A stretch of 64,000 bases of DNA from the human T2T-CHM13v2.0 reference genome, Homo sapiens: contig CP068257.2 of assembly GCA_009914755.4 (NCBI GenBank), forward strand, positions 42,240,001 to 42,304,000, given 5' to 3'. Below the pieces are notes generated by a model. The model was not told where the DNA came from. It saw nothing but the letters and a program-made list of their open reading frames with translations, and made no database searches. Position numbers and translations under genes: made by a program. This document shows, one piece after another, positions 189 through 13,785 of the stretch (its first letter is position 1; each line of letters starts with the position of its first letter).

Positions 189-430
189 GGGTGCCCTGGT
201 GCTGGATGCAGGGGTGCTGTGGTGCTGAATGCTGGGGTGCCCTGGTGCTGGACGTTGGGTGCCCAGGCACTGGATGCTGGGGTGGCCTGGTGCTGGATGC
301 TGGGTGGCCTGGTGCTGGGTGGCCTGATGCTGGGTGCTGGGTGGTCTGGTGCTGGATGCTGGGTGGCCTGGTGCTGGGTGCTGGGTGGCCTGGTGCTGGG
401 TACTGGGTGCTCTGGTGGTGGATGCAGAGG
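189..430. repeat. GC-rich minisatellite. Units of about 10-21 bp of the form CTGGTGCTGG(A/G)TGCTGGGTGG, roughly 11 or more copies.
   Basis: The degenerate periodicity is visible directly. The ORFs 96..692 and 125..565 are translation artifacts of the repeat. Confidence 0.8.
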
Positions 431-962: not shown

Positions 963-1303
<341 letters not shown>

Positions 1304-5115: not shown

Positions 5116-5271
5116 TTTTTCATAAATTACTGGATTAGTTAACTAATACAGGCACACCTTGGTGATATTGTGGGTTCCGTTCCGGACTTCGGCAATAAAA
5201 TAAATATCACGATAAAGTGAGGCACACACATTTTTTGATTTCCCAGTGCATACAGAAGTTAGGTTTATGCT

Positions 5272-5318
5272 GTGTACAGCCATGCCACCCTGAACGTGCC
5301 TGATCTCATCAGAAGTTA
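5272..5318 (+). other. 5S rRNA 5'-end-like segment, about 45 nt, embedded in the Tigger1 5' region as filler between 9-bp direct repeats.
   Basis: GTGTACAGCCATGCCACCCTGAACGTGCCTGATCTCATCAGAAGTTA aligns to 5S rRNA GTCTACGGCCATACCACCCTGAACGCGCCCGATCTCGTCTGATCTCGGAAGCTAA. It is flanked by CAGAAGTTA at 5253-5261 and 5310-5318. Confidence 0.45.
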
Positions 5319-5552
5319 TGTTTCTGCTATACTGTAGTCTGTTAAGTGTGCAATAGCATTGTGTCTAAAAAAAACAGTGTGCATGCCTTAATTAAAAAAT
5401 ACTTGATTGCTAAAAAATGCTAATGATCATCTGAGCCTTCAGTGAGTCTTCGTCTTTTTGCTAGTAGACGGGTCTGCTTCGACGTGAATGGCTGCTGAGC
5501 ACTCAGGGAGGTGGTTGCTGAAATGGGGTGGCCATTGCAATTTCCTACAATA

Positions 5553-5690
5553 TGACATTTTGGATCTGTGTCCCTAAAATCTGACATTTTGGATCCGTGT
5601 CCCTAAAATCTAACATTTTGGATCTGTGTCCCTAAAATATGACATTTTGGATCTGTGTCCCTAAAATCTGACATTTTGGATCTGTGTCCC
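5553..5690 (+). repeat. Tandem repeat of a 29-bp unit, TGACATTTTGGATCTGTGTCCCTAAAATC, about 4.7 copies.
   Basis: The copies lie at 5553, 5582, 5611, 5640 and 5669 with 1-2 substitutions each. The last copy runs straight into the LTR body. Confidence 0.9.
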
Positions 5691-5981
5691 TGTCTGAATC
5701 TCAGTTGAATTGTAATCCCCAGTGTTGGCAGTGGGGCCTGGTGGGAGGGGATCGGATCCTGGAGGTGGGTTCTCATAGTTTAACACCGTCCCCCTAGTGC
5801 TGTAACTGTGATAGAGTTGTCGTGAGATCTGGCTGTTTGAAAGTGTGTGGCCCCTCCCCCTCTGTCTTCCTGCTGCTCTGGCCCTGTGAGACCGCGCGTC
5901 TGCTTCCCGCTTTGCCTCCGTCATGATGGTAGACTTCCAGAGGTGTTCCCAGAAACTGAGCAGATGCCACCATGCTTCTGA

Positions 5982-6665
<684 letters not shown>

Positions 6666-6974
6666 GGTATTTGTTAATAGCAGTGTGAGAACAGACCAAT
6701 ACGGACAGCAATGAAGCTTGCCACATGGATGGACTCTCTTTTTCACAAGTTTTCTCTGTAGCACGTGATGTCATTTGATAGCATTTTACCCACAGTAGAA
6801 CTTCTTTCCAAATTGGAGTCACTCCTCTCAAACCCTGCAGCTGTTTTATCAATCAAGTTTATGTAACACTCTGGATCTTTGTTGTTATTTCCACAATGTT
6901 CACAGCATCTTCACTAGGAGTAGGTTCTACCTTAAGAAACCATTTGCTTTGCTCATCCATAAGAAGCAACTCCG

Positions 6975-7323
<349 letters not shown>

Positions 7324-7598
7324 TCACATCTTCAGACCCCACTAATAATTCTAGTTCTCTTGCTATTTCCACCACTTCTGCAGTGACTTCTTCTGCTGAA
7401 GTCTTGAACTCCTCAAAGTCATCCACGTAGCTTGGAATCAGCTTCTTCTAAACTATTAATGTTGATATTTTGACCCCCTCCCATGAATCATGCGTCTTCT
7501 TAATGGCATCTAGAATGGTGAATCCTTTCCGGAAGGTTTTCCATTTACTTTGCCCAGATCCATCAGAGGAATCACTATCCATGGCAGCTATATTCCTA

Positions 7599-7956
<358 letters not shown>

Positions 7957-8430
7957 TTACTCCTTGATCCATGGGCTGCAGAGTGGATGTCGTGTTACCA
8001 GGTATGAAAGCAACATTCATCTCCTTGTGCATCTCCCCCAGAGCTTTTGGGTGACCACGTGCATTGGCAATGAACAGTAATTTTTTGAAAGGAATCCTTT
8101 TTTCCTGAGCAGTAGGTCTCAACAGTGAGCTTAAAATATTCAGTAAACCATGCTGTAAGCAGGTGTGCTGTCATCCAGGCTTTGTTATTCCATCTCTAGA
8201 GCACAGGCAAAAGTAGATTTAGCATCATTCTTAAGGGCTCTAGGATTTTCGGAATAGTATATGAGCATTGGCTTCAACTTAAAGTCACCAGCTGCATTAG
8301 CCCCTAACAAGAAAGTCAGCCTGTCCCTTGAAGCTTTGAAGCCAGACATTGACTTCTCTCTAGTTGTGAAAGTCCTAGATGGCATCTTTTTCCAATATCA
8401 GGCTGTTTCGTCTACATCAATAATCTGTTG

Positions 8431-8734
<304 letters not shown>

Positions 8735-9879
8735 CTATTGTTGAGTGTGGCCACCTTCATCAGTGATCTTAGCTCCATCTGCAGATGACTTGCTGCAGCT
8801 TCTCCGTGGGCACCTACTGCTTCACCTGCACTTTTATGTGAAGAAGATGTGGCTTCTTTTCTTAAATCTCCTGAGCCAGCAGCCTCTGCTAGCTTCCAAC
8901 TTTTTCTCTGCAGCTTCCTCAACTGTCTCAACCTTCACAGAATTGAAGAGAGTAAGGGCCTTGCTAGGCACTAGGCTTTGGTTTAAGGGAATATTGAGGC
9001 TGGTTTGATCTTCTCTCCGGACCACTCGAACTTTCTCCATATCAGCAATAACGCTGTTTCATTTTCTTATCATTTGTGTGTTTACCTAAGTAGCACTTTT
9101 AATTTCCTCCAAGAACTTTTTCTTTGCATTCATCACTTGGCCAACTGTTTGGCCCAAGAGGCCCAGCTTTCGGCCTATCTCGGCTTTCACCACACCTTCC
9201 TCAGCAGGCTTAGTCACTTCTAGCTTTTGATGTAAAGTGAGAGCTGTGCAACTCATCCTTTTACTTGAACACTTACAGGCCATCAGAGGGTTATTAAGTG
9301 GCCTCATTTCAACACTGCTGTGTAACAGGGAATAGGGAGGCTGGAACAGAGGGAGAGAGATGGGAAGAGCCGCTCGGCCGAGCAGTTCAGAGCATGCACG
9401 ACCTTTTTCCACTCAGTTCCTCCTCTGATGGGGGCCCGGTTCACAGCACTGAAAACAATTATGGTAGGAACATCAAAGATCACTGACCACAGATCACTGT
9501 GACAGGTATAACAATCATGAAAAAGTTTGAACGATTGCGAAAATTACCAAAATGTGACACAGACGCCAGAAGTGAGCACTTGATGTTGGAAAAACGTGGC
9601 CGATAGACTTGCTGGATTCAGGGCTGCCACGAACCTTCACGCTGCAAAAACTCAGTATCTGGAAGTGCAGCGAAGCCAGGCACAGTGAACAAGCTTCCTT
9701 CCGGCTTCTGGCGTTCATGCTCGTGAGTGAGACTGCTCCGTAATTATCCTTTGCATCCTGTTTTTGTCAGGTTTTGGCAAAAAGATTATATTAGCTTCAA
9801 AATGCACTGGGCAGGGGCCAGGTATTTCTTTCTTTCTTTCTTTTTTTTTTTTTTTTAACTTCTCTAAAAGAGTTTATGG

Positions 9880-12566: not shown

Positions 12567-13785
12567 TTTTTTTTTTTTTTTTTTTTTTTTTCAGTATTTA
12601 TTGATCATTCTTGGGTGTTTCTTGGAGAGGGGGATGTGGCAGGGTCATAGGATAATAGTGGAGGGAAGGTCAGCAGATAAACATGTGAACAGAGGTCTCT
12701 GGTTTTCCTAGGCAGAGGACCCTGCGGCCTTCCGCAGTGTTTGTGTCCCTGGGTACTTGAGATTAGGGAGTGGTGATGACTCTTAAGGAGCATGCTGCCT
12801 TCAAGCGTCTGTTTAACAAAGCACATCTTGCACCGCCCTTAATCCATTTAACCCTGAGTGGACACAGCACATGTTTCAGAGAGCACGGGGTTGGGGGTAA
12901 GGTTATAGATTAACAGCATCCCAAGGCAGAAGAATTTTTCTTAGTACAGAACAAAATGGAGTCTCCTATGTCTACTTCTTTCTACACAGACACAGTAACA
13001 ATCTGATCCCTCTTTCTTTTCCCCACATTTCCCCCTTTTCTATTCGACAAAACCGCCGTCATCATCATGGCCTGTTCTCGATGGTCGCTGTCCCTTCGGA
13101 GCTGTTAGGCACACCTGCAGAAGGGTTCCCAGACAGGGCGGCCGGGCAGAGGCGCTCCTCACATCCCAGAGGGGGCGGCCGGGCAGAGGCGCTCCTCACA
13201 TCCCAGACGGGGCGGCCGGGCAGAGGGGCTCCTCACCTCCCAGAGGGGGCGGCCGGGCAGAGGCGCTCCTCACATCCCAGACGGGGCGGCCGGGCAGAGG
13301 GGCTCCTCCCATCCCAGAGGGGGCGGCTGGGCAGAGACGCTCCTCACTTCCTAGACGGGGTGGCAGCCGGGCAGAGGCTGTAATCTTAGCACTTTGGGAG
13401 GCCAAGGCAGGCGGCTAGGAGGTGGAGGTTGTAGCGAGCCGAGATCACGCCTCTGCACTCCAGCCTGGGCAACATTGAGTATTGAGTGAGCGAGACTCCG
13501 TCTGCAATCCCAGCACCTCGGGAGGCCGAGGCGGGCAGATCACTCGAGGTCAGGAGCTGGAGACCAGCCCGGTCAACACGGCGTCTCCACCAAAAATACA
13601 AAAACCAGTCAGGCATGGCGGCGCGCGCCTGCAATCCCAGGCACTCAGCAGGCTGAGGCAGGAGAATCAGGCAGGGAGGTTGCAGCGAGCTGAGATCAGG
13701 GCAGTACAGTCCAGCCTCGGTAACAGAGGGAGACCGAAAAAAGAAAGAAGAGGGGAGAGGGGAGAGGGAGAGCGACAGTTGGTTT
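12567..13785 (-). mobile_element. SVA composite retrotransposon. Read on the plus strand it shows poly-T, antisense SINE-R, VNTR, Alu-like region and (AGAGGG)n.
   Basis: A 25-nt T-run at 12567-12591 is followed by CAGTATTTATTGATCATTCTTGGGTGTTTCTTGGAGAGGGGGATGTGGCAGGGTCATAGGATAATAGTGGAGGGAAGGTCAGCAGATAAACA, which is the SINE-R reverse complement. Then come about 8 copies of the 37-bp VNTR unit GGCGGCCGGGCAGAGGCGCTCCTCACATCCCAGAGGG at 13086-13375, sense-Alu pieces at 13371-13745, and GAGGGGAGAGGGGAGAGGGAGAG at 13750-13782. Possible short TSD GACAGT. Confidence 0.9.

What the first reader, a model, noticed from the sequence alone, without database searches (positions are those of the whole stretch)
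5253..5318. 5S rRNA-derived filler captured inside a local duplication in the Tigger1 5' region
The Tigger1 copy carries a tandem duplication of its own roughly 27-bp segment CAGAAGTTA(G/T)GTTT...CTGT(A/G)(C)AG. Between the two copies lie about 30-45 nt that match the 5' end of 5S rRNA, with 4 mismatches over 32 nt in the stretch GCCATGCCACCCTGAACGTGCCTGATCTCATC and an extended match from GTGTACAG. The junctions show microhomology, TGTACAG on the Tigger1 side against GTCTACGG in 5S. That pattern is the signature of a double-strand-break repair event that used 5S rRNA or 5S cDNA as templated filler. It is an uncommon and mechanistically informative small scar, and ordinary annotation would not flag it.
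Basis: partly seen in the sequence, partly recalled or inferred. Interest (0 to 1): 0.5.

Follow-up and report, generated by a model that had tools for sequence, protein, structure and literature searches.

The report
Tailless 5S rRNA retrocopy inside Tigger1
A 39-base copy of the start of 5S ribosomal RNA, flanked by a 19-base duplication of its insertion site, sits inside an old Tigger1 transposon; it is an ordinary member of a catalogued class of LINE-1-made "tailless retropseudogenes", not a rare repair scar.

Summary
Window 5272-5310 matches 5S rRNA nt 1-39 at 33/39. Four of the six mismatches are CpG transitions. The match scores far above anything else in the window or in 3000 random sequences. 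It is flanked by a 19-nt direct repeat (5253-5271 and 5310-5328, 17/19). None of 20 independent Tigger1 copies carries the 57-bp extra segment.

The interpretation needs correcting in four places.
- The duplication is 19 bp, not about 27. GTGTACAG is 5S nt 1-8.
- The site is about 105 bp from the Tigger1 3' end, antisense to the transposase, not in the 5' region.
- The anatomy fits a tailless retropseudogene made by LINE-1 target-primed reverse transcription with priming inside the RNA. It has an exact RNA 5' end, a 3' truncation in loop C, no A-tail, a 19-bp target-site duplication, no target loss and no untemplated bases.
- Noll et al. 2015 list 555 such 5S elements in the human genome. In the first 99 rows of their table, 47 are 38-44 nt long.

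All their operational criteria that I could test are met. Double-strand-break patches typically lack target-site duplications. I score this as already known and of low interest.

The parts
5253..5271 (+). 5' target-site duplication (CAGAAGTTAGGTTTATGCT), made of Tigger1 sequence
   Evidence: the repeat finder family D1. It corresponds to Tigger1 consensus TAAAAGTTATGTTTACACT. Both copies share derived C, G and TG relative to that consensus, so the duplication arose within this already diverged copy.
5272..5310 (+). 5S rRNA nt 1-39, sense on the + strand. It is 3'-truncated in loop C and has no A-tail. C5310 is shared with the 3' duplication, and the alignment can be run on to nt 42 through the CAGA/CUGA overlap.
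   Evidence: Local alignment score 28 against a background maximum of 15-16. 33/39 identity with 4 of 5 CpGs decayed. Nt 33-44 form the apical loop region of helix III in the 5S fold. Length 38-44 is the commonest class among catalogued 5S tailless retropseudogenes.
5310..5328 (+). 3' target-site duplication (CAGAAGTTATGTTTCTGCT). Its complement would have been the primer for reverse transcription.
   Evidence: 89% identical to the 5' copy. It continues directly into Tigger1 ATACTGTAGTCT with no base lost.
5249..5258 (-). Inferred first-strand nick site. Bottom strand reads 5'-AACTTCTG|TATGC-3', or one base to the right (CTTCT|GTATG): a pyrimidine run followed by a purine.
   Evidence: Sequence read. 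The position is inferred from the left edge of the duplication. It is only a partial match to TT/AAAA or to TT/WAAAAWW.
5149..5252 (-). Tigger1 3'-terminal segment from the terminal inverted repeat (CAGGCACACCT at 5149, preceded by TA) up to the insertion site
   Evidence: Alignment to 20 Tigger1 copies and blastn to the near-intact copy L001.
5329..5557 (-). Continuation of the same Tigger1 after the insertion. The whole element runs to about 9640-9690 on the minus strand, with nested inserts at about 5557-6744, 6973-7275, 7645-7954 and 8430-8729.
   Evidence: blastn against L001. The CENP-B_N domain of the transposase lies at 9086-9412(-). L001 ORFs with CENP-B_N, HTH_Tnp_Tc5 and DDE_1 all lie on the strand opposite to this end.

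Best explanation
This is a tailless retropseudogene of 5S rRNA, a by-product of LINE-1 target-primed reverse transcription (TPRT). It inserted into the 3'-terminal part of an already diverged Tigger1 copy.

Proposed steps:
1. L1 ORF2p nicked the minus strand at the left edge of what is now the duplication (5252/5253 or 5253/5254). This step is inferred.
2. The freed 3' end (...AACTTCTG-3') paired weakly with loop C of a 5S rRNA (C39-U40-G41-A42 against CAGA, 3 of 4). Reverse transcription was therefore primed inside the RNA rather than on an A-tail. This step is inferred and follows the Schmitz/Noll model.
3. The enzyme copied the RNA to its very 5' end. This is shown: the insert begins at 5S nt 1 directly after the duplication.
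4. The plus strand was cut 19 nt downstream and the gaps were filled, giving the 19-bp target-site duplication. The duplication is shown; the cutting and filling are inferred.
5. The copy then decayed neutrally. Four of five CpGs are mutated and the two duplication copies differ at 2 of 19 positions.

The 39-nt piece lacks the 5S internal control region (about nt 50-97, established knowledge). It should therefore be transcriptionally dead and without function.
For: - 5S identity is far above chance, and the mismatches are mostly CpG decay.
- The insert starts exactly at 5S nt 1 and abuts the duplication, as expected for run-off on an RNA template.
- The duplication is 19 bp at 89% identity. 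No target base is lost, no untemplated base is present, and there is no A-tail.
- The truncation at nt 39-42 lies in loop C. This is the main length class of catalogued 5S tailless retropseudogenes: 47 of the first 99 rows of Table S2 are 38-44 nt, with a mode of 42. An independent preprint also reports recurrent 5S truncation at loops C and D.
- All testable operational criteria of Noll et al. are met: at most 5 nt missing at the 5' end, at least 10 nt 3' truncation, an 8-35 nt duplication at 70% identity or better, more than 69% identity to the source, at most a 15-nt gap to the duplication, and length of at least 30 nt.
- The same Tigger1 carries several roughly 300-bp Alu-like inserts, and the window holds a U6/L1 chimera. 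L1-driven retroposition of small RNAs into this region is therefore documented more than once.
Against: - The inferred nick site (TA|CAGAAG or AC|AGAAG) is only a partial match to TT/AAAA or TT/WAAAAWW.
- The primer-RNA overlap is short and imperfect, 3 of 4 nt.
- L1 involvement is inferred from anatomy and literature. It is not shown for this locus.
- Rfam does not call the fragment.
- I could not place the window on a genome assembly. I therefore could not check whether the locus is in the published table, nor inspect an empty orthologous site.
Confidence: 0.85

Rival explanations
1. Double-strand-break repair patch. A chromosomal break in Tigger1 was healed by end joining that captured 5S rRNA or its cDNA as filler, and the flanking duplication came from staggered ends or synthesis-dependent copying.
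For: RNA-templated patches at breaks are documented (PMC5110952). The L1 endonuclease motif at this site is weak. There is 1-4 nt of junctional homology at the 3' junction.
Against: Break-repair insertions (class 2) characteristically lack target-site duplications and show microdeletion or untemplated bases. Here there is a clean 19-bp duplication, no target loss and no extra bases. The exact RNA 5' end and the end point in the loop-C hotspot are predicted by internal-priming TPRT, not by random patch capture. The supposed TGTACAG microhomology is simply 5S nt 2-8.
Confidence: 0.07
2. L1-mediated insertion of a pre-cleaved 5S 5' fragment. The RNA was already cut in loop C, for example by a stress RNase, before it was copied, rather than a full-length 5S being primed internally.
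For: The end point lies in an exposed loop. 5S 5' fragments are discussed experimentally in PMC6962460. The preprint argues for pre-cleaved tRNA halves in L1 chimeras.
Against: Noll et al. looked for polyadenylated truncated forms and for matching truncated 5S RNAs in small-RNA libraries. They found neither and concluded in favour of internal priming. Sequence alone cannot separate the two cases at this locus.
Confidence: 0.1
3. Not an insertion at all: either a chance similarity, or a segment native to a Tigger1 subfamily.
For: Rfam's 5S model reports nothing there.
Against: The alignment score is 28 against a null maximum of 16, with p about 3e-9 per tile. All 20 other Tigger1 copies lack the segment.
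Confidence: 0.01
4. A fragment of a 5S-headed SINE (such as AmnSINE1 or SINE3-type elements), or a 5S/L1 chimeric insertion.
For: Both classes start with 5S-derived sequence. 5S/L1 chimeras often carry 5S nt 1 to about 45.
Against: The 5S piece is bounded on both sides by the duplication and then by Tigger1. No tRNA-like body, LINE-derived tail or L1 segment is adjacent.
Confidence: 0.01

Closest known systems
5S rRNA tailless retropseudogenes (Schmitz et al. 2004 class; Noll et al. 2015, Genome Biol Evol 7:889, PMC5322556)
   Same: 5'-complete and 3'-truncated in a single-stranded loop, with no oligo(A) and a flanking target-site duplication in the 8-35 nt range. The length falls in the dominant 38-44 nt class, and a short stretch of target/RNA complementarity lies at the 3' junction.
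   Different: Nothing of substance. The target-site motif is a weaker match to TT/WAAAAWW than their consensus, and the duplication is imperfect at 17/19. Their headline set accepts 70% identity or better, but their logos use only perfect duplications.
Class III (3'-truncated, direct-repeat-flanked) snRNA pseudogenes of the early 1980s literature (recalled from memory, not read here)
   Same: A small structured RNA that is 5'-complete and 3'-truncated, flanked by 16-19 bp direct repeats, with no A-tail.
   Different: The source RNA is 5S, not U1, U2 or U3. The self-priming model proposed for U3 cannot give a 1-39 product from 5S, because the 5S 3' end pairs with its 5' end.
Class 2 templated sequence insertions (double-strand-break patches; Onozawa and Aplan, PMC5110952)
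   Same: A short insert templated from a cellular RNA, with no poly(A).
   Different: Those lack target-site duplications and show microdeletion or untemplated bases. This element has a 19-bp duplication and clean junctions.
U6/L1 and 5S/L1 chimeric retrocopies
   Same: A small Pol III RNA copied by the L1 machinery. 5S segments in chimeras are also truncated at loops C and D. A U6/L1 chimera lies in this same window at 35412-35518(-).
   Different: No L1 segment is attached here. The 5S piece is the whole insert.

Membership tests
Tailless retropseudogene (Noll et al. 2015 operational definition) | Derived from a cellular RNA, with more than 69% identity to the source | tested here: met
   33/39 (85%) to 5S nt 1-39, or 35/42 (83%) to nt 1-42. 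Criterion.
Tailless retropseudogene (Noll et al. 2015 operational definition) | 5' (almost) complete: at most 5 nt missing or overhanging | tested here: met
   The insert begins at 5S nt 1, directly after the 5' duplication.
Tailless retropseudogene (Noll et al. 2015 operational definition) | 3'-truncated by at least 10 nt, total length at least 30 nt, and no oligo(A) tail | tested here: met
   It ends at nt 39-42 of 121, is 39 nt long, and is followed at once by CAGAAGTT, which is not an A-run.
Tailless retropseudogene (Noll et al. 2015 operational definition) | Flanked by an 8-35 nt target-site duplication at 70% identity or better, with at most 15 nt between the element's 3' end and the duplication | tested here: met
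   19 nt, 17/19 (89%), gap 0.
Tailless retropseudogene (Noll et al. 2015 operational definition) | Truncation point in a loop or other single-stranded region, at a recurrent hotspot | tested here: met
   Nt 33-44 form the apical loop of helix III. 47 of the first 99 catalogued 5S elements are 38-44 nt long.
Tailless retropseudogene (Noll et al. 2015 operational definition) | Target site resembling TT/WAAAAWW, and 2-18 nt of complementarity between the target and the RNA 3' end | tested here: inconclusive
   The site reads TA|CAGAAGTT or AC|AGAAGTT, a partial match. The overlap is CAGA against 5S CUGA, 3 of 4.
Tailless retropseudogene (Noll et al. 2015 operational definition) | Made by L1 ORF2p (endonuclease and reverse transcriptase) | not testable with these tools
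   Inferred only from anatomy and from the published phylogenetic co-distribution with L1.
Tailless retropseudogene (Noll et al. 2015 operational definition) | Listed in their Table S2 (hg19 coordinates) | not testable with these tools
   The window's genomic coordinates are unknown. No coding exon was recognised that could anchor it.
Class 2 templated sequence insertion (double-strand-break patch) | No target-site duplication | tested here: not met
   A 19-bp duplication is present. Definition.
Class 2 templated sequence insertion (double-strand-break patch) | Microdeletion of the target and/or untemplated nucleotides at the junctions | tested here: not met
   Tigger1 is continuous across the site relative to 20 other copies, and every inserted base is accounted for.
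Canonical L1-mediated processed retrocopy (class 1 templated insertion) | Poly(A) tail at the 3' end, next to the 3' duplication | tested here: not met
   No A-run lies between 5S nt 39 and the 3' duplication.
5S/L1 chimeric insertion | An L1 3' segment joined to the 5S piece within one pair of target-site duplications | tested here: not met
   Only 5S sequence lies between the two duplication copies, and the flanks are Tigger1.
Functional 5S rRNA gene (Rfam RF00001) | Full-length structured RNA reaching the family's gathering score | tested here: not met
   No 5S match at the gathering threshold or at E<=10 on 5150-5450. Only nt 1-39 are present.
Tigger1 (host element) | pogo/Tigger transposase domains and sequence homology to other copies over the full length | tested here: met
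   blastn to L001 over 5145-9639. CENP-B_N at 9086-9412(-), and CENP-B_N, HTH_Tnp_Tc5 and DDE_1 in L001. The name 'Tigger1' itself rests on my memory of the consensus.

The most novel reading that the evidence does not exclude
The insert might not come from internal priming on full-length 5S by L1. It could instead come from capture of a pre-existing 5S 5' half cut in loop C. Alternatively, it could come from an L1-endonuclease-independent repair event at a staggered break. If that held for the whole class of 38-44-nt elements, these copies would be a genomic fossil record of 5S rRNA halves in the germline.
Probability: 0.1. Interest if true: 0.3.

Novelty: already known. Interest (0 to 1): 0.1.

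Why it matters
It matters little beyond correct annotation. The element is one more copy of a class that has been described, counted (555 clear human 5S cases) and explained mechanistically. Its modest value is as a clean textbook example of an exact RNA 5' end, a loop-C end point and a 19-bp target-site duplication nested in a datable Tigger1. It also warns that a duplication flanking a filler in mammalian DNA should first be read as a target-site duplication made by L1.

Tried and rejected
- Rfam scans at the gathering threshold and at E<=10 found no 5S hit. The fragment is too short for the covariance model, so I used sequence alignment with empirical nulls instead.
- I looked for other Tigger1 copies in the window for comparison and found none. 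I used host-derived metagenome contigs instead.
- An exact search for the 3' junction in genome contigs gave 0 hits, so no second copy or orthologue was available.
- I searched for other 5S fragments with a CpG-tolerant 5S nt 14-39 pattern. Genome contigs returned 4 hits, all full-length vertebrate-type 5S genes on tiny contaminant contigs. Viral contigs returned 0 hits. I therefore obtained no independent tailless examples of my own.
- I tried to anchor the window to a gene so as to look it up in Noll's Table S2. The ORF list of this GC-rich window showed no recognisable exon, and I abandoned the attempt.
- L014, chosen as a possible full-length Tigger1, proved to be a bacterial contig with only about 480 bp of Tigger1 at one end. 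I used L001 instead.
- I considered and rejected a 27-bp duplication with TGTACAG microhomology, a 5S-headed SINE, a 5S/L1 chimera, and self-primed cDNA. The last is rejected because the 5S 3' end pairs with its own 5' end, so it cannot yield a 1-39 product.

Full report
**What is in the sequence**

Reading 5140-5340 shows a Tigger-type terminal inverted repeat, CAGGCACACCT, at 5149, preceded by TA. About 105 bp further in, the sequence reads:

...CCCAGTGCATA | CAGAAGTTAGGTTTATGCT | GTGTACAGCCATGCCACCCTGAACGTGCCTGATCTCAT(C) | (C)AGAAGTTATGTTTCTGCT | ATACTGTAGTCT...

The repeat finder reports the two 19-mers as a direct repeat: 5253-5271 and 5310-5328, 17/19 identical, 57 bp apart.

**Is the 5S match real**

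I took the mammalian 5S rRNA sequence from memory and confirmed it against the full-length sequence printed in PMC6962460.

- A local alignment places window 5272-5313 on 5S nt 1-42 with score 28.
- The next best score anywhere in the 64-kb window, on either strand, is 15. The best of 3000 Markov-random 200-mers is 16.
- A Gumbel fit gives about 3e-9 per 200-nt tile, or about 1e-6 for the whole window.
- Over nt 1-39 the identity is 33/39. Four of the six differences are CpG transitions, and four of the five CpGs of this stretch are decayed. Only 2 of 29 non-CpG sites differ.

This is the pattern expected for an old, methylated, neutrally decaying copy of 5S.

Rfam's covariance model does not report it, even at E<=10 on a 300-nt slice. 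I read that as a length effect: the fragment holds about a third of the 5S sequence and none of its long-range helices.

**Is the segment foreign to Tigger1**

The window holds no second copy for comparison. I therefore fetched 20 independent copies from host-derived metagenome contigs. The search pattern, AAGTTATGTTTNNNCTATACTGTAGTC, is one the window itself matches, so it does not select against insert-bearing copies.

All 20 copies read GCATA-TAAAAGTTATGTTTACACTATACTG without interruption. The 57 extra bases are therefore private to this copy.

Both copies of the 19-mer share derived bases relative to the family consensus: C and G in CAGAAG against TAAAAG, and TG in TGCT against ACACT. The duplication therefore happened within this particular copy, after it had diverged.

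No Tigger1 base is missing at the site, and every extra base is either duplication or 5S.

- The duplication is 19 bp, not about 27. GTGTACAG aligns ungapped to 5S nt 1-8 at 6/8, and one of the two mismatches is a CpG transition. It aligns to the Tigger continuation ATACTGTAG only with a gap and a negative score. The proposed TGTACAG/GTCTACGG microhomology is simply the start of the 5S copy.
- The site is not in the Tigger1 5' region. blastn against the near-intact copy L001 shows one full-length Tigger1 spanning 5145 to at least 9639, with remnants to about 9690. The element is broken by nested inserts at about 5557-6744, 6973-7275, 7645-7954 and 8430-8729.
- The transposase reads on the minus strand. 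CENP-B_N lies at 9086-9412(-). In L001, the CENP-B_N, HTH_Tnp_Tc5 and DDE_1 ORFs all lie on the strand opposite to this end. The 5S piece therefore lies about 105-125 bp from the 3' end of the element, antisense to the transposase.

**What it is**

The anatomy has six features:
- an exact RNA 5' end abutting a direct repeat;
- a 3' truncation;
- no A-tail;
- a 19-bp flanking duplication;
- no loss of target sequence;
- no untemplated bases.

This is the definition of a tailless retropseudogene. Noll et al. 2015 (PMC5322556) extended the class from tRNAs (Schmitz et al. 2004) to nearly all small RNAs. They list 555 clear 5S rRNA cases in the human genome. They state that truncations fall at defined single-stranded positions, and they derive a target consensus of TT/WAAAAWW. 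They propose L1 target-primed reverse transcription with priming inside the RNA, the target being complementary to the last 2-18 nt of the copied RNA.

Their screening criteria are: at most 5 nt missing at the 5' end, at least 10 nt 3' truncation, an 8-35 nt duplication at 70% identity or better, more than 69% identity to the source, at most a 15-nt gap to the duplication, and at least 30 nt in length. The present element meets all of them.

I tallied the lengths of the first 99 5S entries of their Table S2.

| Length class (nt) | Entries |
|---|---|
| 38-44 (mode 42; seven are exactly 39) | 47 |
| 47-57 | 16 |
| 77-81 | 7 |
| 87-99 | 28 |

The element here, 39 nt and extendable to 42 through the CAGA/CUGA overlap, falls in the commonest class.

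In the 5S fold, nt 33-44 form the apical loop of helix III, which is loop C. A 2025 preprint independently reports recurrent 5S truncation at loops C and D in genomic copies and in 5S/L1 chimeras.

**How it most likely arose**

*Shown by the sequence:*
- The template was 5S RNA copied to its 5' terminus.
- A 19-bp staggered target duplication was generated.
- The junctions are clean.

*Inferred:*
- L1 ORF2p nicked the minus strand at 5'-AACTTCTG|TATGC-3', or one base over. This is a pyrimidine run followed by a purine and only a partial match to the published motifs.
- The freed end paired with C39-U40-G41-A42 of loop C, 3 of 4 positions, and primed reverse transcription.
- Second-strand cleavage 19 nt downstream, followed by fill-in, produced the duplication.

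*Age:* The two duplication copies differ at 2 of 19 positions. The non-CpG divergence is about 7%, and the CpG decay is nearly complete. This suggests an age of tens of millions of years, with very wide error. That is compatible with, but does not prove, the anthropoid-stem burst reported by Noll et al..

*Function:* The piece lacks the 5S internal promoter (about nt 50-97, established knowledge). No function is expected.

**Rivals**

Such class 2 templated insertions are characterised by the absence of target-site duplications and by microdeletion, microhomology and untemplated bases (PMC5110952). This element has the opposite features, so I give this view about 7%.

*Pre-cleaved 5S half as the L1 template.* A 5S 5' half, cut before copying, could have served instead of full-length 5S. 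This cannot be excluded from sequence. Noll et al. searched for such RNAs and for their polyadenylated retrocopies and found neither. I give it about 10%.

*Excluded.* Chance similarity, a native Tigger1 segment, a 5S-headed SINE and a 5S/L1 chimera are ruled out by the statistics and by the flanks.

**Limits**

- I could not place the window on a genome assembly. I therefore could not check the RepeatMasker annotation, the listing in Table S2, or the orthologous empty site.
- My own attempts to collect further tailless 5S copies from public contigs returned only full-length vertebrate 5S genes on contaminant contigs.
- The statement that this class is common rests on the cited paper and on my tally of its table.

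**Verdict**

The element is an ordinary member of a known, catalogued class. Novelty: already known. Interest: low.

Noticed in passing
window 35412-35518 (-), continuing to about 35200 (-): A full-length U6 snRNA copy (Rfam 75.5 bits) is joined directly at its terminal T-run to L1 ORF2 C-terminal/3' sequence (...LHCWWECKLVQPLWK...). This is a classic U6/L1 chimeric retrocopy and a second L1-mediated small-RNA capture in the same window.
   Followed up: partly
window 5544-5691: A 29-bp tandem array of 5.1 copies at 93% identity. Its unit appears to span the junction between the interrupted Tigger1 (CTAAAATA..GACA) and what looks, from my memory of the consensus, like the first ~20 nt of an inserted MaLR-type LTR (TGACATTTTGGATCTGTGTCC). 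That would make it a minisatellite born at a transposon junction.
   Followed up: partly
window 5145 to about 9690 (-): One full-length Tigger1 with its transposase remnant (CENP-B_N at 9086-9412 minus). It is split by at least four nested insertions at about 5557-6744, 6973-7275, 7645-7954 and 8430-8729. The three insertions of about 300 bp look like Alus.
   Followed up: partly
L014 (OGJZ01003388.1), 1 to about 480: A 9.8-kb metagenome contig that is otherwise bacterial (long ORFs, ABC-transporter-like and acetyltransferase-like) carries about 480 bp of mammalian Tigger1 at one end. It is probably a chimeric assembly of host and bacterial reads.
   Followed up: no
L021-L024 (contigs of 329-574 bp filed under Nocardioides, Geodermatophilus, Ancylomarina and Photobacterium genomes): Each tiny contig holds a full-length vertebrate-type 5S rRNA gene (GCTTACGGCCATACC...) with a T-run terminator. 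This is eukaryotic 5S rDNA contamination in bacterial draft assemblies.
   Followed up: no
window 33386-33867: A long 9-bp microsatellite-like array (GTGTTGTGG, about 56 copies, 74% matches) with extreme GC skew (0.57 over 33-34 kb).
   Followed up: no
window 13127-13378: A 37-bp repeat of 6.7 copies (TCCCAGAGGGGGCGGCCGGGCAGAGGCGCTCCTCACA). From memory it resembles an SVA-type VNTR unit.
   Followed up: no
window 189-425 and 50390-50679: Two further GC-rich minisatellites, one of 22-23 bp units and one of 98-bp units.
   Followed up: no
window 1027-1174 (-): An Rfam Metazoa_SRP match just above the gathering score (71.9 against 70), with the match only 148 nt long against a 299-position model. 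It is most likely an Alu rather than a 7SL gene.
   Followed up: no
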